Shown: positions 3,201-64,000 of the stretch, in pieces
How the letters are laid out: each line of letters starts with the position of its first letter
Position numbering within the stretch: the stretch's first letter is position 1
NCBI RefSeq assembly: GCF_964194155.1
Contig: NC_135889.1
Location: forward strand, 45,074,001-45,138,000
Length of the DNA: 64,000 nucleotides
Reading direction: 5' to 3'
Source of the DNA: Cetorhinus maximus
Lineage: Eukaryota
The notes under the pieces: model-generated
Told to the model about the DNA's origin: nothing
The model's input: only the letters and a program-made list of their open reading frames with translations
Database searches by the model: none
Made by a program: the position numbers and the translations under genes

Positions 3201-4933
3201 ATTTCAACTTCCTGATTTACCTCATCTTTTCTACTCTGTTAAACCTTGATGGTATCTTGGCCCTTTGTTTAGTTGGTACAGGCCCAGAGCAGAAAATATT
3301 GTCCATGTATGGCATGAACAAAGATACTCATTCAGAAAGACAACAAGGATGGTTAGGGAAGAAAGTAGGAAACTCTAGTGCAGTAAAGAATGCCCTTATA
3401 ACACTAGAATAAAGACATATTGTCAATTAAATGTGCATTGCTCATGGTGGATTCCATAGTGAGCAGTATTCCAATTCCCAGACCTACTTTTCTTTTGAGT
3501 AAGATAACATATACTTTCCTGAAATGAAACAGTTGACCATTTATTGCCTTGATAATTATTCCCATTCTTAAAAGCTAGCTTTAAGAAAAACATGCACCTT
3601 AAGACTAGGAACAAAGATATAAAAAAAAGCTGCTTAGCTTTTCCTCCATTTTGCTGGTAACAAGATAAAGTCAGCCTTTTAACAATTTCTTGGCAGCAAA
3701 GCTCCCTAAGAATGACTTGTCAAAAATAGACTAAATGCTTCAAGATTGGATCTGCATGGAATGTCAACAGTCTTAAAACAATGATTTATGAATGGAAACC
3801 GGGCATTACCTTGGTGAAAAGCCTTCAATATCTGCTGATCAAATACTTGTTCAGGACAGTGTAACACATTCTTTCCCGCCAATATTGTATTTTACCGTGT
3901 TTGATTCCAGATGGGTTTTTTTTTCTATTGAGATAAATGTCTAAGTAATACTCAAAGCAACACCAGCAGTGTTTCCGTCAGATGCTAATTGGAGTCATCC
4001 TGATTGGCCACAATTAAAATTACAAATATTCAGGGCCAGATGGGTAAATAGACCAACTCTTAAGAACATAAGAAATAGGAGTAAGAGTAAGACATACGAC
4101 CCCTGGAGCCTGATCAACCATTCAGGATGATCATTGCTGATCTTCTACCTCAACTCTACTTTCCCTCCCCCTCCCCATCCCCATATCCCTTAATTCCCTT
4201 ATGTCCTTAAGATTTGTTTTAAAATTGAACCCAGCAAAATAGGGTACTTGTGAAAGGAAAAGGAAAAAGATCATCTGGGCTATCAAACACAGCCCATCCA
4301 GGCATGCTGCAGCCTTTTGTGCCATTGACCTCAGGTCTCAATCAGGCACTCTCGCGAAACAGGTGAAAGAACAGTGTTAAAAAAGAAACAAATGTTAAAT
4401 TAGAAAAGTCTCTGGGAAATTTCTCATTGCCTGATTTCCTTAGTGAGTCAATGTTCCAGGAGACTAGAGCGCCCATAACTCGTCAGAATCCTATCCAATG
4501 TGCTCCTTTCTCAGAAAATTGTCCAACTCCCTTTGGAAGGACGGTAAGAAACCCATGGGTATCACATACTTCTGTAATCGGTTCCAGAGGGCAACGATTT
4601 TGTGTAAAACAAACTTCCTAATATCTAAAGCAAGTTTTTGCTCAAGGATAAAAGCCTCCTCTCCTTAAGGGCTACAAGACTTGTAACATGAAAGACGTTC
4701 TATTAGGCATAGGTTGACAACACAAAACTAACATAAGTTGGTAATCTCGCTCAAGCAGGTCATGGGGAGCTGCTACAGAAAACAGAGGAAAAAAAAATCA
4801 CACTTCTGCAACAGGTGGTTTCTGGAGGGCGATTAAAGTTATAGTTGGGGGCAGAAGAGAGTAAGTTGTTTGACAGGAGAACTAAAGATACTCTATTTTG
4901 TTAGTGATTTTTATAATCCTTAGAATGATCGAC

Positions 4934-5275
4934 CTAAACGGAGTTGGTGTATTTGGTGACCACTTTGGTGCCGTCGGAGACGGCGTATTTGGCCAGTTCC
5001 CCTGGCAGCATGAGGTGGACGTTGCTCTGGATCTCCCTGGCCAAGATGGTGTGGCGCTTGTTGTAGTGAATGAGGTGCGAAGACTCAGGGGCGATGCGCT
5101 CAAAAATGTCGACAATGAAGGAATTCATAATACTCATGGCCTTGGACAAGATCCTGGTGGAAGGGTGGACCTGGGTCAGCACCCTGTACACATAAGTGGA
5201 ATAGCTCTGCTTGCAAGATTTTTTCCGCTTCTTAGGCGGCCTCTTGGTTACTTTAGTCAGCAACTGCTTCGATGC
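4934..5275 (-). pseudogene. divergent histone H2B-like sequence, 5'-truncated
   Basis: Open frame [38 protein letters not shown]...[17 protein letters not shown]...[21 protein letters not shown] is a clear H2B fold; no ATG (in-frame TAG at 5278-5276); no canonical histone stem-loop downstream. Confidence 0.85.
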
Positions 5276-5283
5276 CTAAACTT

Positions 5284-7420
5284 GGTTCAAATTTTAACTT
5301 GTACAACCTGGTTTCTAGGGCTTGGGAAATTAACGTGAGTTTGAGCAGCAGTTCAGGTGGGCAATTTAACTTTCATTTCCCCAACTGAATACAAGCTCAA
5401 TTACTGTAACTGCTATCTCAGTTTCCTCTGGTAAATGTCTGGCAGGCAGTGCTTGGGGTGTTTTAAATTTTGAAGGATTTCAATTGACAAGATCAGGATG
5501 CAAGGTGCCCTGGATATGTATGACAGCACATCAGAAGAGGAAGACCATCTCTATTCATGGCAGTGATGCACTGCGGTGGGATTAGCACACGCACAGGAGT
5601 GAGGTGCACAGAAGCAGAGCCAAGGTCGTAATAGGTGCCACTTATGTTACAAATAGATGCCACCTATGTTACATGGTTTACAGACGGAGACTCAGCTTTC
5701 TCAACCTCTTGGAAGAGCAGCACTTCTGCAGACTAAGGTTGTCACATTAGGTGGTGGCAGACGTCTGCAGTCTCCAACAGAAAGACCTGCTCCATGCTTG
5801 GACCTGGTAGCTGTGCATTACCAGTGACCGTGATGGTGACTATTGCCATCATGTGTTTCACCAATGGATCCTTCCAGAGTACTATCAGTGACATACTCTG
5901 GCCTGTCAGCTGCGAGATACGTAAGGCAGGTCACTGATGAATTATTTGTCAGGGACAAATGTAAACATTCCCGTAGTTACTATATTCAGAATTAACAGAC
6001 ACTCAAATGTGTCTCTCTGGTTCACTTCTGATAGTGGGGTGCTGTGTCCTGTGCAACATTGTGCAGGTAGAGGGTGACATCGATTGTACACATGTGGCAA
6101 TCCAAGCACCATCACAACATCCAAGGCTTTTTATAAACCGCAAGGGGTATTTGTCCATCCAATGCGCAACCAGGCAGGTCTGCGCCAGATTCCCTCAGTG
6201 TTGTCATTCCTTCATAGTGCAGCAGTCCAACAGTCCAGGCATTTTTATTCCAAGAAGCAGACTTAAGCAGACTAATAGGAGACGAGGGTTCAAATTTTGC
6301 TTCTGACTCCCATCAGGAAACCCACCAATGAGGCGCTTGAATGATTGTGAGAACCAAATGACAACTAGGTATCATTGAGCAAGCTATGAGAATGTCAAAA
6401 ATGTGTTTCAGGTGCCTAGATAGGTTTGGAGGTGCCCTTCAGTACTCACCAGCCAGGGAGTCCAAAATGATAGCGGTGTGCTGTAGCCTGCAGGTGAAGT
6501 GGATGAAAGGGCTAATTACTCACCATTGGGTGAGGAGAACAAAGAGGGGAGGATGAAGATGGGGCACCCTTGCCAGATCAGCTGCTTATATCGCTGCCTG
6601 AGATGCCGCAGTATCACAAAGGCTTACCTAGTGTGAAACATTATGTCAGAAATTCTAAAGGCTATCACCAGAACCAAAACCACCAAGTCCCTGACTAAAT
6701 ATCTTTCAATCACCTGTCCACCAAAAAATCCCAACAGGTGTTGACAGACACCGTGAAGCAAGTGAAAAGATGAAACAAAAACAGAAAATGCTGGAAAAAC
6801 TCAGCTGGGCTGACAGCATCCGTGGAGAGAAACAGAGTTAACGTTTCGAGTCCGTATGACCCTTCTTCAGAGCTAAGTGAAAAGGTGAGTTGGCCCTCAG
6901 GCTGCAACAATGGGCAAGATGGGGAAGTGACACAAATCATTAAGTTTTGTGTAGGGTAATATAAAAAAAGAAATGTAGCATATTGACAAATACCCTTGGT
7001 GAACCATAATTTATCCAATTTACCCTTGCTACCACTTTTACATGGTGCTTCTTGAGTGGTTTTAACAGAGGTACAGGCAGGTTGCTAAGATCCACACTCC
7101 AACTCCTCAGGTGCTTTTGGCCTACATCATCTGCATTTTGGAGCCCAAGGGCCCCATCTGCACCCATGCAGGGGCAGCAATCATGAGATAAGGGAGCATG
7201 ATGAGCATTGGTTGAGGGGCAATGGATGAAACACTTTGAGGGAGTTCCCACTTCCATGTCACGTTTCGCCATCATCCTATCCTGGTATCCACATCATTCC
7301 TATCACTCTGCGGCGGACCAGATTGGTGAAGATTAGTGGAATGTTGTTTAAGGTCATGGATAAGGTATTTGCCATCCTGTTTAAGGCAGCATACAAGTTG
7401 CAACTTAAAGACCTGAATTC
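5284..7420 (+). mobile_element. PIF/Harbinger DNA transposon remnant (DDE transposase on +, probable second ORF on -)
   Basis: HARBI1-like motifs IDCTHVAI (~6080), NRKGY (~6137), MCFRCLDRFGGALQYSP (~6400) with frameshifts; TIR-like ggttcaaatttt at 5284. Right boundary approximate. Confidence 0.8.
6772..6876 (-). mobile_element. short Penelope-type terminal fragment with minimal hammerhead ribozyme core
   Basis: Minus strand 6874-6836 reads AGCT CTGAAGA A GGGTC ATACG GACTC GAAA CGT T AACT; same family as copies at 14.8, 22.4, 26.4, 39.2 and 55.1 kb. Confidence 0.75.
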
Positions 7421-8222
7421 TAACATTAACCATAAAAAGATTTCTCTCAAACAATGTTCCACATGATGCAGTGAATACCTGTACTAGATGTATGAAATAT
7501 TGGTTGAATTACAATAGAAATGACTGCACCAACATTGACCACTTAACTGTGTATTACACAGCATTCAAGGTACTGGAGACTAGAATAGGAAATATCAGCA
7601 TCCTCATTATAAATGGGATTGAGTCAGAGATTCATAACCTGATGCCTGTTAGTTTCCTATTGCAACGAAACATGAAGGACATCGAATCTGACAGTACGAA
7701 CAAAACCAAATGAGAAGATGAAGACATTATTGTAAATGGTCCTCCTCAAGACCTCAGCCAAGGATGCCATTCAAAATTGTCAACTTCAATATGGAGGAAC
7801 TCTCTGAGAGAAGTCCGGCATTCTTTTTGACATGAAATCAGACCTCATGTGCTTGAAAGAGACAGCAGCACCTAAGAAATTGTGAAACAAAAATAAGAAC
7901 AGAACAGCAGAATGAAATTTCTGACCTACAAAAGGGGTTCAAGATTTAGGCCTAGCACAATCTAAGGTGAAGCGCATGAATGCTTAAACCCTTAGGCAGT
8001 AGAACACCCAAACTCTGCTACCTTCACTGGAAGATGTCAAGCAGAACCTAAGTGTTTTACAGAGGAAAAGGGAGGAAAAAAGTAAATTACCTAGGGTTTC
8101 AACAACTTCTCATTATTGGATGGAATATTTTGAAGTTTGCAACACATGTTATGATCATTACCATAATATGGAAAACGTCCATATGCTCCAATTTTAAAAA
8201 ATACACACTAACCTTTCCTTAC

Positions 8223-8386
8223 CTTATTGTGTGTGAAAACAATTCTTAGGTCTGGTTTTATTATGCCATATGCCATTAGGAGGTCTTGAACTTTTTTCAG
8301 CTCTTCTTTGCATTTTTTGGCAGTGAAGTAAAATTGCTTCCTTACAGGGATATTCTTAAAGAGTTTGAGCACTGTCACAGTTGTTC
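8223..8386 (-). CDS. PMS1: PMS1 coding exon 4 ([18 protein letters not shown]...FTHNK)
   Basis: MutL-family GTTV..LF.N.PVRK motif; acceptor ttag|GA at 8387/8386, donor AAG|gtaag at 8223/8222; 164 nt, phase-consistent with the previous exon. Confidence 0.96.
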
Positions 8387-8559
8387 CTAATAGACATGAA
8401 CAACAGTAAATTGAAATTAGCAATGGACAAAAGGTGAGAGCAAGCACTGAAAAATAAAAGTACTTATCTTTGAAACATTTTTGATGACATAAATTCTGTC
8501 ATGTACATCTTCTGGTACAAACCTTTCTCCTGCTGTGCCCAAGCAGAAACAGTGGCAAA

Positions 8560-9268
8560 AGATTCCATAATAGCTGCTTCTGCCTCACTGCTGTTCTCCC
8601 GAGTCCTCGCTCACAGTGTGGGTTTAGGAGAGGGAAATGGCAAGCGAGAGCATTTTAAAAAACCATGATTGTAGCAGCAGCAGCAGCTGCTCAGCATTTC
8701 TGCACCATTAGGGCTCACACTTCCACAACATTGGAGTGGATCTGGATCATGAACAGGAACACGTCCAGGAGAGAGAGGCGGCGAGAGGGTGAATCAAGGA
8801 GCGGGGGGTTCGGCGAGAGGGTGGGCCGGGGAGGGAGAAGAGGCCGCAACTCAGAGGGTCAGAGAGTGGGGAGAGGCCAGAACGCGTAGCGTCGGGGAGG
8901 GGGGGAGAGAGGCCACAACTTGGAGGGTGGGTGGGGGGAGGAGGATCTGCAGCGACCAGGAGGATCAGGGAGTAGGCGGTTCGGAAAGCAGGATCGGCAG
9001 TGAGCAGGAGGTACTGTAAGTAGAAAGTTACATTTTTCTTTAAATAAGTATAAAATATACAAGTTAAAATATACATTTACCAATGTAGGAAGTTAGCAAT
9101 GTAAAATACTGTAAATTAGAGTTTTTTTTTCTGATAAGGAAGATCCTACAGAACCTAACTACAGTTTTAACATTGATTCCTATGGGAACCAATATTTCAC
9201 CTAAAGTCGTTTCACTTAAAGTCATGATTTTCAGGAACGCAACCACAACTTTAAGTTGGACTTACTGT
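8560..9268. mobile_element. probable Tigger/pogo-like non-autonomous DNA element
   Basis: Right end (tatgggaa...gttt..acttaa...ttttcaggaac...ggacttactg) resembles the right end of the MITE at 28468-28964; left end not identified. Confidence 0.4.
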
Positions 9269-13858: not shown

Positions 13859-14879
13859 CTGTGAAAAAGTGAAGCTGAATGGCATTTATATTGTAAAAAC
13901 TTTATGGCAATAGTGAAGGCAAACCCCAATGACTCAATGAGTGAAAGCACTGCTATGCAGTGCTATGCAGACCAGGTCCAGGTTTAATGGCCGGTTAAAA
14001 GCTTATTGTGGGAAGGTACGTTTCAATTAGCCTCAGTGTTCCTGGGTTAGTAAAGAAATATCAACTAGCAGTCCTGTCCTGATCACTATTCAGTTGAAAA
14101 CTATGTGATTGTGGATGGCACATGAGGTAGACTAAGGCTCAACTGTTATATGCCACCACCCCACTCAGTGGGGCTGCACCCCAGCATGATGCTGTATTTC
14201 AACATCTTAGAAACAATGATTATACACTGGAAAAACTGTAGACAACATTTTGGTTAGTTCATAATGTTACTAATTATTCAGGGAAATTATGTTTTCTCAT
14301 TAAATAATGTCAAATCCAAAGTAATGTGGATCTTCTAAACTCAATTACTTCTTTCAGTTTTGTGTAATCGCCACCATGATTTAGATGACTAAAGTAAATG
14401 GAAGTAACAACACCAAACTTATCAAAAATATAGAGTTCTAGCAATGTGGTTAAAATGTGCATGTAACAAAAATGTTGCGCTTTATTTTATTTGATTAATA
14501 TGTTTTCAATTTTGTTTTAAACAAAGTCATTTTGTGCCTTCAAATGCAATTGGTTTATCTCCTTCGTAGCCATAGTAAAATTAAGCAGGTATGGCTGTCT
14601 GGTAATAGATTAGCTCTTATTCTGTGGTAACATAATTTGTACCCTGTATGAAGAGTACCTAAAACCTTATGAAAGGTCAGGAACAAAAGACCGTAGATTT
14701 AAGGAAATTGGCAAAAGAACCAGAGACGAGATGAGAATTTTTTTTTTCCCATTGCAAGTTATGATCTGGAATAAAAATATGCAAAATGCTGGCAAAATTC
14801 AGCAGGTCTGGCAGCTCCCTGTGGAGAGAGAGAGAGAGTTAACATTTTGAGTCCAATATGACTTCTTCAGAACCAGACC

Positions 14880-20465: not shown

Positions 20466-22423
20466 TTGCTCCCAGAATGCTGAAGCTAATTGTCTACTGT
20501 TTAATTGGACCTTCCGATTTCACTTCACCCTCCGTGCAGAAGTGGGGGACAGGGTGGTGTTGGGTGGGTGAAAAAAAGTACTTGCTCCCCAATAAGTAAC
20601 TCATTGTATGGGATATAGCCATTTTGAACATGCATTTCACACATTCTGTATCAATAATATGGGAAAAGGATTATAATACACACCAACCAAATGATGGTGA
20701 CATCTCTTCTTCCAACTGTATCATCAGGTTGGCATTGCTTATTTATTTTCATATTACTGCATTGCTTCTCTGTAAAATTATTAATAAGTTTCATCTCCAC
20801 TAGTTGCTTTAGCTGAGAATTTATAATGTAATTAATTATAAATTGGAATAAACCTCTGCTAAGTGGATACATATTCTTTCCCTTTTCCGCTCCTCCAACC
20901 AAACATGTAATCCTTTACTTGCTGTTTTAAGACCAATTCTTGTTTACTTTACCTCACAATTGATATTATTACTTTACTCAATAATCAACGCAGGGAATTA
21001 TTTTATAAACAGCCAATTTTTGAACTGATTATGTGTGGTCTTTTAAGATGAAGATGTGCAAATGTTGGTTGTAACTCATGACAATTAGTCATTGCTGACG
21101 GACGATCTGGACTTAATGTTTCATAACTTTTCTCAAAACATGCTGATAACATTTAGAGTAAATTTTAAAAAACTATTACGCCCTCCCTCGCTTAAATCAC
21201 TACATGAATAGGGGACTGCTAACCACCCAAGGTAGAGTTCAATGTGGAAAAGTGTGAGGACTTTGGATCGAAGAAAATTAGATTGGAATATTTTTTAAAT
21301 GAAGAGGAGCTAGGAACTGTGCATGAGCAGAGAAATTTAGAGGCCCAAGCTTCCACTAAATATTAACAAAGCAAGAGTCAAAGCCATTAGTTTGTTTAAT
21401 TCTCATTATTATTGTTTTTAATTAAATGATTCTTTATAAAACGATCCTTTTTATTTAGGGATTAGATTGATGAGGTAGAGGGATGAAAACAAATAACTAT
21501 TTTAAATGGGATTTATTTTTTGGATTCTAACATTTCATAGCCTGTGAATGGCTTATGTAATGCATTCTGATGGAGACAGATTAATACAGGAAGTTGCTTC
21601 TGATTATTTTTATTTGCAGCATGTTTGAAATCTCACGTTGCATTGCACAAAGTCAGGACAGCTATTTCTGTCAATATAACTCCTTTCATTAAATCAATAG
21701 CTAAAAGCAACCATTGAAGTTATGTTTACAGGAATCATCACGTTAAAGTGAAAGATATAACCAAAATGTACATTTCTATCCTAATATACAATGCTGAAAC
21801 ACAGACATCATTTACTTATCTAGAGATTTTCCAGAACTAGTGCCAAAGACACATTAAAACTGGAACATGATTTGTCTAAGTGAAGCTTTAAGGTGAACTA
21901 ATTCTTCATGAATTGCCCAGACATCAGACATCCTTGTCGAATTAATGGAAAAAGATTCACAAATAATTAAGATAGAAAGAGATACATTTTTTTTAAAAGT
22001 ACTTAGAGACAACGAACAGATTTGCAGTGGAAATAAAGAAAGCATCAGAACAAATTAAGCACTGCCAATTTTGGCAAGAATAAAAGTCTCAGAGGCAGCT
22101 AATCATCAGACAATTCAATTTCTCAGAAGCACAATTTCTGATTAATATCCTTGGAAAGAAAAGAAACAAATTAATGGCATTGCGACAGAGCGTTTTAGTT
22201 CAGAATAACAAATTCTTTAGAACAAAGGATTAGCAGTTCTTCTGTATAACAAAGGAGGTATAGGAAATTGAGTAAGTACATTTGCCAAACAGGTAGCACT
22301 GATCTAAATTCTGGAAATATGGGATGCTGGAATTAAACAGCAGCTGCGAAAGCATCCAAAAGGATTAATGAAAAGACAAGCTAATGTTTCAATTAGAGAT
22401 TTTCATCCAAACTGGAAACCAGA

Positions 22424-22462
22424 AGTTCTGATGAAGAGTCACAAGGACTCGAAACGTTAACT
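22424..22462 (+). ncRNA. minimal type I hammerhead ribozyme motif in a Penelope-type terminus (element ~22310-22552)
   Basis: AGTT (stem I) CTGATGA A GAGTC ACAAG GACTC (stem II) GAAA CGT T AACT (stem I'); consensus core, palindromic ACGT in place of stem III. Activity untested. Confidence 0.65.
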
Positions 22463-23710
22463 GTCTTTCTCTCCACAGATGCTGTCAGATCTGCTGAGTT
22501 TTAAAGCAGTTTTTGTTTCAGATTTCCAGCATCCACAGTATTTTGCTTTTAATCACTTAATTGGTTTGTTCTCAAATATACAAGTGACTGAACCAAGAAC
22601 ACCAAATACAGCAAACTAGATTGTCTCACATGGATCAAGTTCTTGGGACACTAGTTAATGCATGTGCCAGTTCCCTGCAAAATGCCTGTGAAAGAACAAC
22701 TCGTGACAGAGGTGCTGGAAGAATGAAGAATGCCACAGACAGTTTCACTGGAAAACAAAAGCGGCAAGGAGAGCTGAAAATATTCTGGAATCACGTGTGG
22801 ATGATTTGATGTAAGAGAAGCGGGAAGAGAAAAGAATGAAACAGGAGTACGGGCAGAAGTGCAGCTGAGGCACCCTCCACTAGAGGAGAAGCTCAGCAAT
22901 GCAAATAATATTTAGAAATTATGGTGCAGAAAGTGAAGCCATCAGAGCATGTGCAATCAAGACGGAGAAACTGAAAGAAAGAGATAGGTTTTTTTTTTAA
23001 ATAAGGCTGACAAGAAATATTATGAAAGTGGTTGTAGAAGTGTCTTATCAGGAAGGTAACTGTTAAAACCCATGGGAAAAATGAACAGGAAAGGCATTTG
23101 TGCAGTGACTTTGAATGTTAAATTTATAGTGAGTATAGCACTTCCTGTATTAAAGCCTTCTCAAAGAGTAGCATGAAAAGAGAAGACTGCAACTTGAAGG
23201 ATGCATTAAGAAACTGTGAAACGGGTTCAGCTGTTTCTGCACTAAAACAGCTTTCCAGCAACAAAATTAAGTAAATTATTTTAGTTAATTCACACAATTA
23301 TAAATTGAAAGGTGATCTTGGGTTCCAAACGTTTCTGCCAAAATTTGGACTTTTATTTACATCTTCTTAAAATAAAGATAAGCCTATTAAAACTATGTAC
23401 AGCAGTGTTTTTAGGGACGCAGCGTGCACATATTTCATTAACTTATATGCACAGTAATTCCCCCGAGTTGTGCAATCAGTTAAATATTTCTAGTATAGAC
23501 CAGGCAAAAATACCTTGAATTTATATAGAACTAATAGAAGTGTCGTCACTGGTTCCATGGTGCAGCTAACCTAAGCACCTCTTATCACACAAATCAACTG
23601 CATGAAATACCGGCACTTCACATTTAATTTAAGAAGTCTTCCAGCTGTAAAGCCCTCCAGAGCCCCCACACCAGCGTTACTGGTCAAAAGGAGTCTAGGG
23701 TATCTTTGCA

Positions 23711-25337
23711 CAGCAGGGCAGACTGCTCACTCACACCCAGTATCTGCTGGATGTTGGGCTGGACACATTCTGCACTCACTCCCAGCGCCTGCGGGACACA
23801 CTCCGCACTCACTCCCAGCGCCTGCGGGACACTGAGCTGGACAGACTCCCCACTCACTCCCAGTACCTGCTGGACATTGGGCTGGACAGACTCCTCACTC
23901 ACTCCCAGTACGTGCTAGACATTGGGCTGGACAGATTCCTCACTCACTCCCAGTACCTGCGGGACAGACTCCTCACTGACTCCCAGTACCTGCTGGACAG
24001 ACTCCTCACTCACTCCTAGTACCTGCTGGACAGACTCCTCACTCACTCCCAGTACCTGCTGGACAGACTCCTCACTCACTCCCAGTACCTGCTGGACAGG
24101 CTCCTCACTCACTCCCAGTACCTGCTGGACAGGCTCCTCACTCACTCCCAGTACCTGCTGGACAGGCTCCTCACTCACGCCCAGTACCTGCTGGACAGAC
24201 TCCTACTCACTCCTAGTACCTGCTGGACAGACTCCTCACTCACTCCCAGTACCTGCTGGACAGACTCCGCACTCACTCCCAGTACCTGCTGGACAGACTC
24301 CTCACTCACTCCCAGTACCTGCGGGACAGACTCCTCACTCACTCCCAGTACCTGCGGGACAGACTCCAAACTCACTCCCAGTACCTTCTGGACACTGGGC
24401 GGGACAGGATCCCCACTCACTCCCAGTACCTGCTGGACAGACTCCTCACTCACTCCCAGTACCTGCCGGACAGACTCCTCACTCACTCCCAGTACCTGCT
24501 GGACAGACTCCTCACTCACTCCCAGTACCTGCTGGACACTGAGCTGGACAGACTCCCCACTCACTCCCAGTACCTGCTGGACATTGGGCTGGACAGATTC
24601 CTCACTCACTCCCAGTGCCTGCTGGACACTGGGCGGAACAGACTCGTCACTCACTCCTAGTACCTGCTGGACAGACTCCTCACTCACTCCCAGTACCTGA
24701 TGGACAGACTCCCCACTCACTCCCAGTACCTGCTGGACAGACTCCCCACTCACTCCCAGTACCTGCTGGACTCTGGACTGGGCAGACTCCTCACTCACTC
24801 CCAGTACCTGCTGGACAGACTCCCCACTCACTCCCAGTACCTGCTGGACTCTGGACTGGACAGACTCCTCACTCACTCCCAGTACCTGCTGGACAGACTC
24901 CTCACTCACTCCCAGTACCTGCTGGACAGACTCCTCACTCACTCCCAGTACCTGCTGGACAGACTCCTCACTCACTCCCAGTACCTGCTGGACATTGGGC
25001 TGGACAGACTCCTCATTCACTCCCAGTACCTTCTGGACACTGGGCTGGACAGACTCCTCACTCACTCCCAGTACCTTCTGGACACTGGGCTGGACAGACT
25101 CCACACTCACTCCCAGTACCTTCTGGACACTGGGCTGGACAGACTCCACACTCACTCCCAGTACCTTCTGGACACTGGGCTGGACAGACTCCTCACTCAC
25201 TCCCAGTACCTGCTGGACACTGAGCTGGACAGACTCCACACTCACTCCCAGTACCTGCTGGACAGACTCCTCACTCACTCCCAGTACCTGCTGGACAGAC
25301 TCCCCACTCACTCCCAGTACCTGTTGGACATTGGGCT
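23711..25337. repeat. minisatellite, 33-bp unit with 45-bp variant
   Basis: Unit ctgctggacagactcctcactcactcccagtac (33 bp); variant adds 12 bp (ttgggctggaca/ctgggctggaca); roughly 40-45 units by estimate; most degenerate at the left end. Confidence 0.97.
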
Positions 25338-26369: not shown

Positions 26370-26658
26370 AACAAAAATACCTGGAAAAACTCAGCAGGTC
26401 TGACAGCATCTGCGGAGAGGAATACAGTTAACGTTTCGAGTCCGTATGACTCTTCAACAGAACTAAGGAAAAATAGAAAAGAGGTGAAAGCTTATATTTC
26501 ACCTCTTTTCTATTTTCCCTTAGTTCTGTTGAAAAGTCATACGGACTCGAAACGTTAACTGTATTCCTCTCCGCAGATGCTGTCAGACCTGCTGAGTTTT
26601 TCCAGGTATTTTTGTTTTTGTTTTGGATTTCCAGCATCCGCAGTTTTTTGCTTTTATC
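26370..26658. mobile_element. Penelope-type terminus with inverted duplication (120-bp-arm palindrome)
   Basis: Arms 26370-26489 and 26497-26616 are near-perfect reverse complements around a 7-nt spacer; flanked by imperfect direct repeats taaattgggacagga (26356-26370) and taagtttggacagga (26659-26673). Confidence 0.85.
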
Positions 26659-26829
26659 TAAGTTTGGACAGGACTTGGAACTTACTATTCCTCACTATTA
26701 TCTTTTATAAGATGAGGAAAAAGAGTGCCACAACATAAAATTGTCCTGTGGATTGATTAAAAAAATCCATGTGGCTAAATTGAAAATAAGAAGGAAAATG
26801 TTACCATTCTTCAAAATGAGATCTACATA

Positions 26830-30199: not shown

Positions 30200-31740
30200 G
30201 CTCATTTGACATTGTTAGCCTATTCACCAATGTTCCACTTAAGGAAACCATAGATATTTGCGCTGCAGCACTATATCATGGTTATTTAGACCTGCCACCA
30301 TTGAGCTTATGAACTCGGCAACTCACGCAGTTGAGTTCATTTTTAATGACACCATGTATGCCCAACGGTGTTGCCATGGGATCCCCTCTAGGCCCGGCTC
30401 TTGCAAACATCTTTGTTGGGTTCCACGAGAAATGTGTCTTCGATAGAATGACACCTAATCTCCTACCTCTCGTATACTTCCGATATGTGGATGATACATT
30501 TACTATTTTTAAATCTGCAGCTGCATATAACAATTTCCTTACATGTCTTAATGGGCTCCATCCTGTGCTCAAATTCACCTATGAAATGGAGCAGTCAAAT
30601 TAACTCCCCTTCCTTGACATGCTAGTTGAGAAATTTGCCAGGGGATTCTCTACCACGGCCTACTGCAAGCTTACCTTCACTGGTCAATATACATGTTGGG
30701 ATTCTTACAGTTCCACACTCTATAAGGTTGGTCTTAGCAGCAACCTTGTAAATAGGGCCCGCCATGCAAGCTTGATGCTGAAATAGGCTGCATCGTAGGC
30801 ATCCTTCAGGATAACGGCTACCCTGATAGATCATTTCGCGCTGTGTATCTCACAAACTTATGAACGGGCCTAAGGCCGTTACTTTCGGCCCTGAAAAGTG
30901 TCCAGTCTACCTCAGATTACCTTGGAAGGGCAAGGTATCTCAAAAATCTGAACAACAGGTGAAGCTGTTTCACACTCCTACTATGCAGTAGCAACACAAG
31001 TGGTATTTGCCACTAACAGGATGCTGCCGTCAAGCCAGAAAGACATTCTGCCTAACATACAAATGATTAATGTGGTATATGAATTTCATTGCCAGTGTGA
31101 TTCTAGGTATGTAGGCTGTACGTCCCAAAGACTAGCGGATTGTATCAAACAGCATGTCCCAGCCGCTGTTTGCAATGGGCAGGGTACTGTACCCAACCAG
31201 CCTGTGCTTGCAAAACTCAAAACAGTGTCCAACATTAAAAGCGATTCTGCATTTGGACAACATTTGTTAAATAATTCTCATTGTGCTAAGAATTACGCTG
31301 ACGACCAATTTAAGATTGTCAGTCGGGCTTGCAATGTTGTGCAATTGCGTGTACTGGAAGCTACATATATTCATACAAAGGGCCCTGTTCTTTGCAGATA
31401 GAAAGAACATGTGCACATATTGCACCTGTTTCAGTTAAACAGAATAAGTGACAGCTATTTACTGACTCATTCCTCATGGCAATGCCTTGACCAATCAGGG
31501 TCAAGCTGCCTGGTTTAAATTTCGAACAATGCTTAGCAGTTAACTGTCAGTCATCATCAGTGGTGCATTCTCCATAGCAACACCACTTGCCAACCAATCA
31601 GCACTCTCTTCACATACAGTATAAATTGTTGTTTTCCCTCTTATATTGGTATTCTTGAGTGTCCTGATGAATGCAAGACGCAAAGCTTAGAATGTCTCCT
31701 TTTTCAGCAATACTCAAATTCTGTACTACCGAACGACTAT
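30200..31740 (+). mobile_element. Penelope-like element (RT plus GIY-YIG endonuclease), 5'-truncated and frameshifted
   Basis: RT motifs NGVAMGSPLGPALANIF and YFRYVDDTF; GIY-YIG domain VVYEFHCQCDSRYVGCTSQRLADCIKQH...SAFGQHL; 3' terminus with degenerate CTGATGA hammerhead-like core at 31664. Confidence 0.92.
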
Positions 31741-39211: not shown

Positions 39212-39325
39212 AGTTCTGATGAAAGGTCAATGACCTGAAACTTTAATTTTGTTTCTCTCTCCACAGATGCTGAGTGCCTCCAGCATATTCTGGTTTCCAG
39301 TATCCACAGTATTTTGCTTTTGTTT
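39212..39325 (+). mobile_element. short Penelope-type terminal fragment with hammerhead-like core
   Basis: AGTT CTGATGA A AGGTC AAT GACCT GAAA C then ...tctctccacagatgctg...ttccagtatccacagtattttgctttt. Confidence 0.7.
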
Positions 39326-42022: not shown

Positions 42023-45000
42023 TTTGGAACTCATCACCCATATTCTAACTAGCTTGTTATATTTACTGGGAAGACTTAAAGCTGGTAATCTGCTGTACTG
42101 TTAACTGTAACTAGAGTGTACTGAGCAGTCTATGTGTGTCTTGATGCCATTTTCATTGTTTGTATCCATTTCAAAAACGGATTTGTATTTTTGTTTTGTA
42201 AAAGGAGAAAAAAACAAATGAAATCTGGTAATTGGAGCAGATATAAATACTTAAATTGTAAAAAGCTTCCCACAAGAAACTGGGCAGGCCCAGCTCTGAA
42301 ATTGGAAGGAGCTTTATTGTACTGAACAAATTGTGCACAGCTTTATGAAGATGGCACAAGTGTTTTAGAGGAAGGAGTTGCACAGAAGTACAGCAACTCG
42401 GGACACTCGAGGAGTGAAAAGCTTGTTTATTTACCATGAGGTACAGAGGAATGAGTCACTACCATTATCAAGAGATGGTAGGTAGCTTGAGTTCTATTTT
42501 TGTCATAAGTTTTGATTAAAAGCATACTGTTGCTTCTGTTTTTTCATTACAGAATAAGAAAATGATGGTACAGGAGCAGATTTGGTGGAGAATCATAAAC
42601 TAAATGTTAAATATTTTGAGCTATTGTAATCCATTTTTATGGGTTATACTAGTAAGGTTTCTGTTTAATGGCTTCACTTTTATCAACTATCTAAATGAAA
42701 TACTTCATTGCTTGGAATATACAGTAGGATACATGCTTCTGTTCCATGTAATGTCACCTGACTAAGTGCAGTCAATGTATAAAAGTGATATTACAGTGCA
42801 CAGTGCTTCTTATGTATGTTTCGTGTTCGAAGGAATTACTATGAAATTGTATTTCAGAAAAAAAAACTGGTGGTTTGTAGGGAGTTTTTGCTGATGACAT
42901 TTCAGAGTTTGGTTGATACCAATTGTTTCTCCCTTTCTGTACCACTGATCTATTTGAATTAGTTTCAATGGTGAAGTAAATATGTCAGTGTTCATGCATT
43001 TACAACTCATGCTAATTTCTCAATGTGTTGCTTGCTTTCAGGAAGATGTGTTGAGCAGGAGCTAACTAGCTTCATATTTTTTTAAAAAAAGAGGTTGGAC
43101 CTGTCACTCCAGCTGCCCTTGCACAAATCTTGGCATCTGGCTTAATAGTGGCACTTGTAGAGTATTGAGAGTTGGTTGTCTACCTTCTCGGCCATGATTT
43201 TTTTTTTCTCGCAACTCCGTAACTCTTGGAATTGCTGTAAGGAATTGTATAAGCAACGCATTCTTGACGCATCAACTTGTGCTTGCTGACGCATCAAAAT
43301 CTTGCAGTCTGCCATTGCAGGTTATCAGCAGCACAATTAATTGAGATTGGTTTAATATTCTGTATTAGGGTAAGTGTTTACCAAAAAATTGCAAGCATTA
43401 CCCCAGACCACACATTTGATTGGTTTATTCGAACCTTTGATTTGTGAAACAGGTGTGAGTAGAGCTTACTATTGGTAAAAATAAAAATCAATTTTAAAAA
43501 GCTTGAGACAATTGAGCTTTCTACTAGTATTTCCAAAAATGCAAAACATCTGTATGTTTCTTCTATGCAATTAAAACAACTTGGGGGAAAAGTTAATTCT
43601 TTATAAACAATAAAACAGTTTTGACCTTACAGTATTGTGGCTGATATTTTGTTAAAACTGTGCTGATTGACTTCTTTATGCTGTATTTTGAATGCTTACT
43701 GACTCCATTTAAAATTGAAAAAGCAACATGAACTGGCATAATGTTAAATGCTAAAATAATGGAGAGATAAATGTATATTTTGCTGTAATCCATTGTTTTA
43801 TTGCATAAATTTATTTTTGTATTTGGTGTTGCTTTTTTCCCTTAATTTATTCAGGTGCTGTTTCTATTCCAACCACCTTTGGCATTCCTAACTATCTTAT
43901 AAACTTTGTCACATGCAGAAAAGTATTGTTCATGTTAAATTCAGATGGTGATAGTGAGCAGTTGGCTATACAGTATAATTGTGATAACTTTGAAAATAGC
44001 AGAAAGGCAATTATTAAAAGATTATTCAAGAGCCCATCCCTGTACATATGGTGTGTCTTAATCTGCTAAACTCTTACTTTAGAGTCATATGGCTTTGTAT
44101 TCAACTTTTATCACAGCATATTCAAATAGACTTAATTGTACTATATACTCTAGCTGAGTAACACTTATTATACACTAGACAAATACAGGAATTATTTCCA
44201 TAAAAAGTAAATATGGGTTAGTTTCTATTTTCATGGGCAGCTTCTTTGAGTTTTCTCCAAGGTGGAAATTTTATAATCTATTGGTCTTAAGTTAGACACC
44301 AAGAAAAAACAAAGACATTTTAATGCAATTGGATCCTGGACTGTGCACAGTAATATCTGAATTTATTCCAAATTGTTGCAGAAAATATTTTTCCGGTTTC
44401 TAAACTGCATTCAAGTTACCCACCTTTCTTACTGCATGGTGCAAATCTAAATTTTGTTTGTCCTTAATTGCAAATCTGTAGTGCATTTCCAAAATTAAAC
44501 AACTTTAGCTGTGGTTCAGTTTTCAATTAAGGACTGCATTAATAATATTTCCACTGGTAATACAAATCGGAGACTGAATCAATGATATTGAGGATAAATG
44601 TAGAATAAATTCAGAAGACTGCACAGTGGCATAATTTACAGTCAAAATAGCTGTAATTAGTTCCAGGAATTGGGGAATATTTGTTGACCATTTCAGTGGA
44701 ACAACTACAGATACAAGCTTTTGATCACCTGACCTATTTCTCCTTATGCAGCCTGGTATCATAACTCTCTTTTATGATGCTCCTATGAAGCACCTTGGCG
44801 CAGTTCATTACATTAAAAACGCTATGTAATGTTATTGTTGAAGAACACTTTGATTTCAAAAAGTGTCCAGAATGAAAAGAGAACTTGATTTTTTTAAAAA
44901 TCATTTTTCTCTATCATAAGTCAACCAATGTTTCTTCAAATAAGTGATCAAACTGCAACTCTGGAACTAGTCTAAATACATCACCTTGGATTGTTATAAA

Positions 45001-45369
45001 AACTGGAAAATGCTAGAAATCCTCAGTCTGGTGACAGCTGTAGACTGGAAAATGCTGAATTGAAAGATGAGGTGCTGTTCCTTGAGCCTACATTGAGCTT
45101 CATTGGAACCATGTGGGCATTTGAGGTCAGGGTGGTAATGGGATAGAAAACTACAATGATGAGACACTGGAGGCTCTGGACTTCTTTCAATTTAGTATAC
45201 TATATTTGCTGCTCATGATGCAGCCTCCTGTACATTGGGGAGGCCAATGTGGACCACTTTGTAGAACACCTTCATTCACCCGAATGTGACTGTGGATTTC
45301 TGATTGCCAGTCATTTTAATTCTCCACCTACCCCATTCTTGACAAAGCGGGGTAAATCAGTCTAGTTCC

Positions 45370-51668: not shown

Positions 51669-52742
51669 TTAAGACAAAAGAAGCTGACATTCTTCTTCCA
51701 TCAATCCTTTAAAAACATCATAATGGTGATTAAGATCCTTTTTTGTATGTATTTTATATTTAGTGCCCAATGCTCCATCAGGAGAAGATGTTGCATAAAA
51801 AACTGTGCGTATTCTGGAGTGGACCAGTGCCATAGCACACATTACACATGGTTCTCTTGAAACATATAGATCATAGCCAGTGCATATGTAGGGCAGCCCA
51901 TTTACAATAGCTCCTGTGGAACTATAATCCTTTGAAGGAAGCAAAGGTTTACCAACGTTGATTACGTAGTCATCGGAAAAGGATTCTAAAGACTTAAAAT
52001 GACAGTTAGGATATTTGTTATGATTAAAAGCACCACCACCTTGTCCATAGGCAACTAGATCAATACACACCATAACTGCATGAAGCAGTGGATTTGGTCC
52101 ATTTCTGCAGTCATGACCTACTGCAATAATCTCATCAGTGGCTGGGTTAACAACCACTGCACCTACTGGCTCCATCCCCATTTCCTTTCCTAATTTAGCC
52201 GTTTCGATAGCTTTTTCCATAAAAGTCTGCATTTTTGCTCTCTTTTCAGCATTAAAAAGACGACCTTGGAGGGCATCAGTCACCTGCTTGTTTTCATGGA
52301 AAGTTGTTGGCCAGTGCTGGCTAGCTGCTTCAAACTGAGGTCTGGTCAATGGTTGGTATGCTGGTATCTTGACGTGAAAAGGTTCTCCAAGTCCAATGCC
52401 ATCAGCCTTTCCTTCAGGAAAGAGGTCACTGAGAGATACTTCTCCATTTGGTACATCCGTGTCATTCAAATCCCTGAGCAGACAAATTATAATTTCTAAA
52501 GCATGATCAGTGTTCTTCTCCCTGCATGTTCGTACTCTCTTGATATGTGGAAGGTTGTTCAGTGGATAGAGACAAGCCAATTGTTTAATGAGACAAGATG
52601 TTTGTTTTTTATTGATAATAGGGGCTGCATATGCTTCTAGAAGTTCAACTTCACACAATTTCTCATCTGAAAGTACAGGCCTCAGCTCCCAAGTGAAAGT
52701 GCTGATTGCCCTTGTTTTTCTCTTTTTGCACTCTGGCTCCAT
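51669..52742 (-). CDS. ADAT3: tRNA-specific adenosine-34 deaminase non-catalytic subunit ADAT3, 357 aa, single coding exon
   Basis: HLKRV-like PHIKRVR, PLTRPQFEAASQHWPTTFH, LLHAVMVCID (V replaces the catalytic E of HAE), YICTGYDLYVSREPCVMCAMALVHSRI, LNHHY. ATG at 52742; acceptor tttccttcag| gives exon start 52792, so the TTG start of the ORF track is intronic. Confidence 0.96.
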   Translation of the reverse strand: MEPECKKRKTRAISTFTWELRPVLSDEKLCEVELLEAYAAPIINKKQTSCLIKQLACLYPLNNLPHIKRVRTCREKNTDHALEIIICLLRDLNDTDVPNGEVSLSDLFPEGKADGIGLGEPFHVKIPAYQPLTRPQFEAASQHWPTTFHENKQVTDALQGRLFNAEKRAKMQTFMEKAIETAKLGKEMGMEPVGAVVVNPATDEIIAVGHDCRNGPNPLLHAVMVCIDLVAYGQGGGAFNHNKYPNCHFKSLESFSDDYVINVGKPLLPSKDYSSTGAIVNGLPYICTGYDLYVSREPCVMCAMALVHSRIRTVFYATSSPDGALGTKYKIHTKKDLNHHYDVFKGLMEEECQLLLS

Positions 52743-53379
52743 TATACCTTCAACATAAGAATTGGGAGATTTGTTATAGTGAGTGTCAGAAGCTGAAGGA
52801 AATAGGAAAACAGTTAAACAATCAAAGTCCAAAAGTTGTATCTTCTATTCTTCCCAAATAGTTCCTTTACAAAGCAGTAGCCAAAAATATACAATCCATT
52901 TGGAATGCACACTGAGACTGTGAAAGATCACAATTCCTAGCTACCAGAGCTCCAACTTAGATTCTATTTTACTTAAGAGTATTTGCTCTGTGTAACCTAT
53001 CTACCTGCCTTTAGTCTTACTGCACCTGTTCTTAAAATTTGTGCCATCATGATGAGGGATGTTAATGCTGACAAACAGAACACTTTCCATTTTGTTACCT
53101 AAAATTAGCATCAAGTATTTCCAGTTGAGCTGTTGGTACTTAGTTAAAAAGTTAACATCAATATGCCATACGTATTCTTCAGGATATATTTCACAGTTCA
53201 TCTGAATGTCCTTTGGCACTAACACTTATGAGCAGAGTATATAATGTGCTAGCCAGGGATCAGAGAAAAAAACATACACAAGTAATGTAGTGACTGATCA
53301 TACTATAATGAACCATTCCTAGTTCCCATGATACTATGGTCATCTCTTATGGTATCACTGCACAAATGAATGAGAAATT

Positions 53380-54834: not shown

Positions 54835-55246
54835 TTATCATATGAGGATTTCCAGAAACATCAACTTAATTGTATTTCCATCCATTGTTTCATATCTGCC
54901 TTTTAGCCCATTTCGATCCCTCCCCGCTACCCCCCAACTAGGGCTATCTGTACCTTTATTATCACATTCCTTAGATAATATCACCAGCTTCAACACCTCT
55001 TTGTGACATCTTTTGGTTATCTCCACCTATCACTGGCCCTCTATCCAGCTCTACCTGTTCCCCCACCCCCTTTAAACCAGCTTATATTTCACCTCTTTTC
55101 TATTTTTCCTTAGTTCTGTTGAAGAGTCATACGGACTCAAAACGTTAACTATGCTCCTCTCCGCAGATGCTGTCAGACCTGCTGAGTTTTTTCAGGTAAT
55201 TTTGTTTTTGTTTTGGATTTCCAGCATCCGCAGTTTTTTGCTTTCA
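54835..55246 (+). mobile_element. Penelope-type 3' terminal fragment
   Basis: 55080-55245 is nearly identical to 26490-26655; hammerhead-like core has GAAA changed to AAAA. Confidence 0.8.
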
Positions 55247-55524
55247 ACTTAAATAACTTAAGTCATGCCAACACCATTCTCATAAATCAAGAGACAAAAT
55301 CTTCAAAAGATCAAGACATTTGTTGTAAAAATAAAGTAGTTACTTCCAAGCATAAACCAACATAGATTGGCAGTTGGGTTGGTTTATAAATTTATAATGG
55401 TTTATTGGTGGCTTATTTAATCTTAAACATGGTGCTTTCACAAACTACTTTCCAATGTGAGCCCATTTTAACACTTGAAAAATAATGTAACTCAGATGCC
55501 AACAAAAACAATAAAGCAGCATAG

Positions 55525-63090: not shown

Positions 63091-64000
63091 CTGATATGTC
63101 TGTTTGCTGAAAGGAAAATATTTCAGTCCTGGTTTGTGTTAATACACCGAACACTTACATTTATGTAATGGCATGAAATGAAATAATGTAGGGAATATAC
63201 CCAAGGGCTTCACAGAGGAGAAACAGCAAATAAAAAGTAGGAGCAGGAGGAACATTGAAAAGGCTCTCAATGGCTGGTAGAAAAGTAGTGAAGTTCAGCA
63301 AAGAACTTCCAATGATTGGCTGAGACAGCTGAAAGCTAATACTAGCTCTAGTCTTCCAGTGCATTTTTAGAAGCTGAGTTAATTCCAGATAGGTTGTCTA
63401 TTGTTATCTATCTCTAAACCCAGGACACGCTTTGTTCTTAAGGAACTGCAGGAGATGAGAGAACATTTTGTCAGTGAGTTACATGAATTGGTTTTCTATC
63501 ATGCAGTGTTGATACCAAGAAAGAGGTGAATAGAAAGTTTGTAAATGCTAGGAATCTGAAACAACAGAAAATGTTGGAAATACACAATAGGTAAATCAGG
63601 GTCCAGAAAGAGAAAGGGTGTCAGTGGACTCCTAACCGAACTGTTAACCCATTTCTTCCCTTTTCAGGGGCTGTTGGTTCCGCTGTGTAGTTCCAACAAT
63701 ACTAGAAGGTTATGCCAATAGGGTTAGATGAAGACGGGGAGGAGGAGGCTCGTGTGGAGCATAAACAATACCATGGATCAGCTTTGCCAAGTGGCCTGTT
63801 TCTGAGCTGTACATTCTCAATAATTTTATGTAACACACATCATGGGCTAACATGAACTTCCTCGCCTCCAATTTTTTTTTTTCTCCCTTTGCCAGCTTGT
63901 ATCTTTCTCCCTTGCCCAGTTTGTGTTTCGCCACTCCCCACCTCAACTTGTGTTTCTCTCTGTCTCAACATCCCCAGTTTGTGTTTCTGTCTCACTCGCC

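What the first reader, a model, noticed from the sequence alone, without database searches (positions are those of the whole stretch)
22424..22462. Intact minimal hammerhead ribozyme motif in a dispersed short repeat family
Seen: AGTT-CTGATGA-A-GAGTC-ACAAG-GACTC-GAAA-CGT-T-AACT. This is the CUGANGA/GAAA core, a perfect 5-bp stem II, a 4-bp stem I, and a self-complementary ACGT where stem III should be. Related copies occur at 6836-6874 (-), 14837-14873 (-), 26427-26464 (-), 26522-26560 (+), 39212-39248 (+) and 55112-55150 (+). Stem II differs between subfamilies but keeps pairing (GAGTC/GACTC, GGGTC/GACTC, AGGTC/GACCT). Established: Penelope-like retroelements carry minimal type I hammerheads with palindromic stem III, thought to cleave as dimers. 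Inference: about seven such motifs in 64 kb imply a very large ribozyme-bearing short-element family in this genome, with predicted cleavage after GUU at 22458.
Basis: partly seen in the sequence, partly recalled or inferred. Interest (0 to 1): 0.7.

Follow-up and report, generated by a model that had tools for sequence, protein, structure and literature searches.

The report
Penelope retrotransposon end with hammerhead motif
The motif is real and is the short end-piece of a very abundant Penelope-type jumping gene that carries a known small RNA motif predicted to cut itself; this copy has the standard core but is likely inert, and the family's youngest branches replaced a normally fixed core letter (A6) with U or C, which likely slows cutting while the family kept spreading.

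Summary
The motif at 22424-22462 is confirmed letter for letter. It is not a free-standing short-element family. It is the pseudo-LTR end of a Penelope-like element: full copies run hammerhead, RT + Zn-linker + GIY-YIG ORF, hammerhead. About 4.4e5 ends are estimated genome-wide, but only about 1e4 keep an intact canonical motif (11,140 exact). Of the seven window copies, one is perfect, one has a stem I mismatch, three carry U at core position 6, and two are decayed.

The youngest lineages carry A6U (26,041) or A6C (21,265) cores, as do 15 of 16 long-ORF copies. Copies start mainly at the first base of stem I, 29-30 nt behind a TATA-like box (20 of 60), and rarely at the predicted cut (1 of 60). 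Uncut RNA is therefore likely the main template. Cleavage is untested.

Minimal hammerheads in Penelope-like elements are published (PMC4209133); I found no paper on a fixed A6U/A6C lineage. This scan has reported the same family, the A6 change and the shared start point before, on other DNA of this and other genomes.

The parts
22424..22462 (+). Minimal type I hammerhead motif, canonical A6 core; predicted cut between 22458 and 22459
   Evidence: cleavage not tested
22424..22552 (+). 129-bp stub of the PLE pseudo-LTR: starts at stem I, ends at the long ('tail') 3' end
   Evidence: 74-78% identical to the pLTRs of full-length L115, L121, L125 over its length
22303..22413 (-). Much more decayed inverted copy of the same end, head to head with the stub
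   Evidence: alignment score 57 versus at most 44 in 500 shuffles; nhmmer E 0.009 in the window
6763..6874 (-). Stub with A6 core (CUGAAGA), C.A mismatch in stem I, 10-bp target-site duplication
14764..14874 (-). Decayed stub (G12A, C15.2U, stem II deletion)
26370..26663 (.). Head-to-head inverted pair of A6U ends (26427-26464 minus, 26522-26560 plus), folded back at about 26489, 33 nt upstream of stem I; only one arm has the tail
39212..39322 (+). Old AGGUC/GACCU-stem subfamily stub; ACGU palindrome lost
54866..55251 (+). Longer pLTR/3' UTR copy with TATA-like box upstream and A6U + G12A motif at 55112-55150
44999..45329 (.). Old PLE remnant: GIY-YIG fragments and a decayed pLTR piece
   Evidence: tblastn E 2e-7 and 0.001; nhmmer E 0.005
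63539..63700 (.).

Best explanation
The motif is the minimal hammerhead in the pseudo-LTR of an endonuclease-bearing Penelope-like retrotransposon, and this 129-bp copy is likely a complete reverse transcript of the first ~130 nt of the element's uncut RNA and likely inert where it sits. Shown: full elements are pLTR(hammerhead)-ORF(RT, CX4CX2C linker, GIY-YIG)-pLTR(hammerhead). Copy 3' ends fall at two sites about 35 nt apart. Copy 5' ends pile up at the first base of stem I, 29-30 nt behind a TATA-like box. Young lineages have U6 or C6. Inferred: transcription starts at stem I. The element's RT primes internally about 100 or 137 nt downstream. Priming in the 5' pLTR runs off the RNA end and leaves stubs like this one, often folded back into inverted pairs; priming in the 3' pLTR gives long copies. 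The hammerhead would cut only slowly, as a dimer through ACGU or with help from the element's protein, removing a 35-nt 5' piece. Cutting is not needed to make new copies, so the A6U and A6C lineages, predicted to be slower still, could take over.
For: Architecture: (RVT_1 E 1.8e-6 and GIY-YIG E 5e-4, both just under Pfam's curated cut-off; DKG motif in L055; hammerhead about 375 nt after the stop codon and about 175 nt before the first ATG). 3' ends: 31 of 60 at +96..+109 and 22 of 60 at +130..+146, matching the PLE tail that PMC11167929 ties to two internal RT start sites. 5' ends: 20 of 60 at -4..+4 and 1 of 60 at the cut. TATAW at -29/-30 in 38 of 47 long copies although the spacer sequence differs between subfamilies; TATA and Inr motifs are described in rotifer pLTRs (PMC3846280). 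Neighbours within 1 kb: 29 inverted, 8 direct. Age: CpGs kept 16 of 80 in A6 versus 51 of 62 in U6+C6; median nearest-neighbour distance 0.107, 0.033 and 0.016. All 8 recurrent haplotypes keep 5 of 5 stem II pairs, including U-A to C-G inside the C6 lineage; 95% of cells paired, above all slid controls. In an anole PLE, hammerhead mutants insert normally and the ribozyme needs the protein (PMC11167929). A6C slows a hammerhead about 1e5-fold at 0.3 mM Mg but not at 10 mM (PMC7151607, Table 1).
Against: No cleavage or transcription-start data: all runs offered were contigs, most only guessed to be RNA. No excess of G at -1 that would betray a copied cap (533 G versus 970 A). The same sequence also reads as a 3' splice site (pyrimidine tract + YAG). 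Core conservation after A6 loss is not statistically separable from the flank (0 of 10 core columns versus 12 of 61 downstream columns polymorphic). The alignment was hand-picked and its rows are related. A small share of C6 copies does start at or near the cut. The longest stop-free frame (920 aa) has an internally shifted segment, so no fully intact ORF was shown among the 16 examined. The pLTR tree is midpoint-rooted, so the A6 to U6 to C6 order is inferred from copy ages and the known consensus.
Confidence: 0.72

Rival explanations
1. The hammerhead is still an essential, active cutter in all lineages; A6U and A6C are tolerated because the element's protein, or Mn2+, restores activity, and the change tunes cutting down rather than off.
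For: All other core positions and all stem II pairs are kept in the recurrent young haplotypes, with a compensatory change after A6 loss. U6 is the majority letter among reference-like contigs in three other coded organisms, so it persisted across speciation. By eye, about 11 of the insertion events among 100 listed rows (of 299) start exactly at 1.1, and more are ambiguous. A natural phage A6C hammerhead is slow but active and prefers Mn2+ (PMC3088659, PMC7151607).
Against: Cut-site starts are at most about 1-2% of copies versus about a third at stem I. About 14 events start at 15.2, so 1.1 is not a lone peak. 19 of 20 inspected loci are fold-backs near a palindrome. Single and double mutants in the CUGA turn were low-activity in a saturation screen (PMC9901934).
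Confidence: 0.2
2. The motif is kept as a folded binding or promoter element (for the RT/endonuclease or the transcription machinery) and has stopped being catalytic in the young lineages.
For: It lies exactly at the inferred RNA start; stems are kept while a catalytic-pocket base is lost. Naiad PLEs proliferate without canonical hammerheads (PMC8557442).
Against: G8, G12, A13-A15.1, U16.1 and a pyrimidine at 17 are all kept, which a non-catalytic element need not do, although few lineage-level changes were available to test this.
Confidence: 0.3
3. Stubs start at stem I because it is a 3' splice site, as at helix I of Drosophila virilis Penelope, or because of self-priming on an antisense template, not because transcription starts there.
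For: A pyrimidine tract and YAG precede the motif. An intron end maps to helix I in D. virilis (PMC4209133). Antisense self-priming was proposed for head-to-head palindromes (PMC3846280). No cap-G signal.
Against: By eye 12 of the 20 copies starting at -4..+4 keep the AG and none shares an upstream exon. No GT..AG joint is among the 15 joints shown of 18. TATA spacing is fixed at -29/-30.
Confidence: 0.15
4. An independent ribozyme-bearing SINE or retrozyme family.
For: Most copies are short (42 of 71 sampled copies show no upstream homology to one young reference). Non-LTR retrozymes derive from pLTRs and occur in one chondrichthyan (bioRxiv 10.64898/2026.07.22.740005).
Against: Stubs match the pLTRs of ORF-bearing elements, subfamily by subfamily, and grade continuously into long copies. 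No head-to-tail array of the motif in the window, and direct neighbours are rare.
Confidence: 0.05

Closest known systems
[quoted passage not shown]
   Same: No helix III, palindromic 15.2-16.2, extra base between 9 and 10.1, G10.1-C11.1, short helix I, position in both pLTRs, most copies solitary and truncated, opposite-strand pairs.
   Different: Stem II is 5 bp rather than 7-8. The copy number (about 2.6e5 covering the motif) is far above the 4,000-9,000 motifs reported for coelacanth and Xenopus, though counted differently. The youngest lineages fix U6 or C6; the only core variant named in the text I read is U3-A8.
Neptune/Nematis-type EN+ Penelope-like elements (PMC8557442, passages)
   Same: Single ORF, RT then C-terminal GIY-YIG, CX2-5CxxC linker, DKG motif, pLTRs, inverted 5'-truncated partners, optional 30-40-bp tail.
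   Different: Clade not placed on a tree here; Neptune is assumed over Nematis from the vertebrate range.
Poseidon element PAc of Anolis (Frangieh et al. 2024, PMC11167929; parts 1-2 of 4 read)
   Same: Two 3' ends a tail apart, and uncut RNA as the apparent template.
   Different: There the ORF starts inside stem II and RT starts inside the ORF; here both 3' ends and the motif lie upstream of the first ATG.
Natural A6C hammerhead of phage Bcep176 (PMC3088659, PMC7151607; passages and Table 1)
   Same: Same core substitution as the C6 lineage.
   Different: A single full-size phage ribozyme with stem III, not tens of thousands of dimer-type copies; no A6U data found.

Membership tests
EN+ Penelope-like element | Single ORF with PLE-type RT and C-terminal GIY-YIG | tested here: met
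   (both Pfam hits just below curated cut-offs; DKG and YIG motifs seen); met by full-length relatives, not by the window stub
EN+ Penelope-like element | Direct pLTRs flanking the ORF, inverted truncated partners, 30-40-bp tail | tested here: met
Neptune clade | CX2-5CxxC linker between RT and EN | tested here: met
   (C-X4-C-X2-C); shared with Nematis
Neptune clade | RT phylogeny groups with Neptune | not tested
   no named reference PLE proteins were at hand; PDB search gave nothing
min-HHR (type I) | CUGANGA / GAAA / UH core | tested here: met
   met at 22424 and in 11,140 exact genomic copies; not met at position 6 in the U6 and C6 lineages
min-HHR (type I) | Stem II pairing kept by compensatory change | tested here: met
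   G-C/A-U at 10.1-11.1, U-A/C-G at 10.4-11.4; few independent events
min-HHR (type I) | Stem I pairing kept by compensatory change | tested here: inconclusive
   only one-sided wobble changes recur, and an old subfamily has a fixed C.A mismatch
min-HHR (type I) | Palindromic 15.1-16.1 for dimer helix III; extra base after A9 | tested here: met
min-HHR (type I) | Self-cleavage after position 17, as a dimer | not testable with these tools
   only contigs available; genomic footprint weak
Non-LTR retrozyme | Head-to-tail tandem units each with a type I hammerhead | tested here: not met
   tested on the window and a 1.17-Mb sample only

The most novel reading that the evidence does not exclude
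A vertebrate retrotransposon lineage replaced the invariant hammerhead A6 first with U and then with C and out-spread its canonical ancestors while keeping the rest of the fold. The motif sits at the very 5' end of the element's RNA as a deliberately slowed, protein- or metal-gated switch that removes the capped 35-nt leader. The genome thus holds a natural A6/U6/C6 series for testing why Penelope-like elements keep hammerheads.
Probability: 0.25. Interest if true: 0.7.

Novelty: new variant of a known kind. Interest (0 to 1): 0.4.

Why it matters
The role of the hammerhead in endonuclease-bearing Penelope-like elements is stated to be unclear (PMC8557442), and the one in vitro system found it dispensable for insertion (PMC11167929). 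This family offers matched natural variants (A6, U6, C6) with tens of thousands of dated copies each, and a genomic record of which RNA ends were copied. The window copy itself is an ordinary old-type stub and is most useful as the canonical control.

Tried and rejected
Rfam found no hammerhead in the window; its two hits only reflect the 26.4-kb inverted repeat. A PDB sequence search with the ORF gave no match. Folding z-scores are uninformative for so short a motif.

Cap-G test: no G excess at -1 (533 versus 970 A). All 40 inspected loci lack upstream pLTR and many abut an inverted partner.

The cut-site test for the window's own subfamily failed by design: a 2-nt-longer subfamily shifted the register and filled the 100 listed rows of 2,112. 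No fusion to foreign RNA was seen in the 20 C6 loci inspected; this is too few to test an earlier report of rare fusions.

Sequencing runs were contigs only, with RNA status guessed for most, so starts, ends, strand and level could not be read. An alternative register that would restore a CUGA in the U6 or C6 motifs was looked for by eye and not found. Exact-pattern counts favour young copies (two CpGs), and the C6 pattern was looser than the others, so the counts are not copy numbers. The first RT search used a frameshifted query and so favoured copies with the same shift.

Full report
Observation. The six other copies exist. A core pattern matches 4 times against 0.53 expected. Rfam does not detect the motif. 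Only the 22424 copy is fully canonical. 6836 has a C.A mismatch in stem I. 26427, 26522 and 55112 read CUGUUGA; 26522 also loses the 10.1-11.1 pair and 55112 has G12A. 39212 has lost the ACGU palindrome, and 14837 is decayed. Further decayed ends lie at 22303-22413 (inverted, abutting the focal copy), about 45000 and about 63600.

What it belongs to. The host genome is 3.99 Gb; that it is a shark is my recalled impression and comes from no call. Several best-matching loci share 1.3-1.7 kb upstream of the motif, which encodes RT and GIY-YIG fragments. An RT search gave 37,363 first-look candidates, 148 scored. Sixteen loci with long frames were cut out. All 16 have the motif downstream of the ORF in sense orientation, typically about 375 nt after the stop codon. 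Seven (L115, L116, L117, L121, L123, L124, L125) have a second direct copy in a 5' pLTR, about 175 nt before the first ATG where an N-terminal frame was listed. The longest stop-free frame, 920 aa, hits RVT_1 (E 1.8e-6) and GIY-YIG (E 5e-4), both slightly under the curated cut-offs. It carries the C-X4-C-X2-C linker that PMC8557442 (passages) gives for Neptune and Nematis. It also has an internally shifted segment: the DKG motif is in frame in L055 but not here. No fully intact ORF was shown. The stub at 22424-22552 is therefore a pLTR end of an endonuclease-bearing Penelope-like element.

How many, and how intact. In 117 systematically spaced 10-kb stretches there were 130 profile hits and 0 in the reversed control, or about 4.4e5 ends genome-wide (bootstrap 3.5-5.4e5); 76 hits cover the motif (about 2.6e5). 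Of 72 with the core columns and downstream sequence, 40 have A6, 16 U6, 15 C6 and 1 G6, and only 3 are canonical and intact. That extrapolates to about 1e4, in line with 11,140 exact canonical matches. Exact matches with U6 number 26,041, with C6 21,265 (looser stems) and with G6 589; backwards controls were 0.

The young lineages lost A6. CpGs in the motif survive at 16 of 80 sites in A6 copies and 51 of 62 in U6 and C6 copies. The median nearest-neighbour distance downstream of the motif is 0.107, 0.033 and 0.016 (p 1e-8; this measure also depends on how many subfamilies a class holds). Fifteen of the 16 long-ORF loci have U6 or C6 in their 3' motif. In a tree of 48 long pLTRs the 11 A6 rows form one side of a branch (98/91) and C6 arises up to three times within U6; the root is only a midpoint. 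In contigs from organisms A, B and D laid on the U6 copy at 55085-55175, A at position 6 makes up 9-27% of depth, so U6 is shared beyond this genome (biased to reference-like contigs). Among 153 distinct rows not chosen on the motif, all 8 haplotypes seen three or more times keep five stem II pairs, with U-A to C-G inside the C6 lineage. In young copies 0 of 10 other core columns are polymorphic at 8%, against 4 of 5 loop and 12 of 61 downstream columns, which is suggestive only. In old copies 31 of 61 rows have a C.A mismatch in stem I. A hand-picked 26-row alignment gives 95% paired cells and 3 pairs with two-sided change, above slid controls. A6C cut a mouse-gut hammerhead from 0.30 to 3.6e-6 per min at 0.3 mM Mg but left 0.33 per min at 10 mM (PMC7151607, passages and Table 1). 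The natural phage A6C ribozyme is slow but active (PMC3088659, passages). Mutants in the CUGA turn were low-activity in a saturation screen (PMC9901934, passages). I found no A6U measurement.

How the stubs arise. Sixty loci picked by sequence downstream of the motif (the first 30 of 30,822 and the first 30 of 7,643 matches) were mapped against 38 long references. Twenty start within -4..+4 of stem I (two pairs among them are arms of one insertion), 1 starts at the predicted cut, and 24 extend further upstream. Their 3' ends cluster at +96..+109 (31) and +130..+146 (22). This is the PLE tail, which PMC11167929 (parts 1-2 of 4) ties to two internal RT start sites; the same paper reports that hammerhead mutants insert normally and that cleavage needs the protein. 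A TATAW lies at -29/-30 in 38 of 47 long copies, and stem I begins in an initiator-like context (consensus recalled); TATA and Inr motifs are described in rotifer pLTRs (PMC3846280, passages). The simplest reading is that the RNA starts at stem I and that stubs are run-off copies of uncut RNA. Against it: no cap-derived G (533 G versus 970 A), and the site also resembles a 3' splice site like the one at helix I in D. virilis (PMC4209133, parts 1-2 of 4). However, by eye 12 of the 20 keep the AG and none shares an upstream exon.

Does it cut? Untested. Following a lead from e1-8661026, I listed C6 copies that begin in the 12 bases around the cut: 299 matches. By eye on the 100 rows shown, about 11 insertion events start exactly at 1.1, about 14 at 15.2, up to about 9 at each other position, and about 13 are ambiguous. 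Of 20 loci inspected, 19 join an inverted copy (17 flagged by script, 2 by eye) and 1 is an internal deletion. A small cut-site excess is possible but is confounded by fold-back at the palindrome spanning the cut. The same test on the window's subfamily was uninformative. The focal copy's nearest same-strand motif is 4.1 kb away and defective, its lowest-energy fold is an inactive one, and close neighbours are mostly inverted (29 versus 8). It is likely inert. Published minimal motifs showed no monomer activity and low dimer activity (PMC4209133).

Known and new. Minimal hammerheads in pLTRs, including fish Neptune elements, are published (PMC4209133; PMC6155905, passages). A 2026 preprint covers pLTR-derived tandem retrozymes with one chondrichthyan (part 1 of 5 and passages; supplements closed). 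Searches for shark or elasmobranch hammerheads and for fixed A6U/A6C lineages (and the supplement search) returned no such report in the held library. The scan's earlier notes, read after my own analysis, describe the same family, the A6 change and the shared start point on other DNA; they are not independent support. Verdict: the focal motif is an ordinary canonical member of a known kind, and its family is a new core variant of that kind. Interest 0.4.

Noticed in passing
window 51669-52844 (-): A 391-aa single frame with a cytidine/dCMP deaminase domain (E 1e-15) and HAV in place of the catalytic HAE; it looks like ADAT3 (name recalled).
   Followed up: partly
window 23761-25337: 1.6-kb GC-rich tandem array of 33/45-bp units with several open frames on both strands.
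   Followed up: no
window 30364-30675 (+): RT-like remnant only 34% identical to this family's protein (E 4e-10): a second, distant Penelope-like family.
   Followed up: no
window 26370-26663: Fold-back centre at about 26489 lies just upstream of the TATA-like box and makes it palindromic; the flanks share an imperfect repeat ending GGACAG, possibly the target duplication.
   Followed up: partly
L036 (G000:C2979:4000-13900): Inverted pLTR pairs carried inside a 2.16-kb higher-order repeat made of a 37-bp satellite, three units; next to a zinc-finger-like exon.
   Followed up: no
L118 (G000:C8:102025500-102033500): A near full-length C6 element inserted in a long satellite array.
   Followed up: no
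L042, L043, L047, L049, L054: Several long copies share the same frame shift at a C-run upstream of the RT; probably selected by my shifted query, but a recurrent slippage site is not excluded.
   Followed up: no
all recurrent haplotypes, positions 16.2-1.3: Every common variant keeps GTYRAC across the predicted cut, a palindrome or near-palindrome on which fold-back junctions are often centred.
   Followed up: partly
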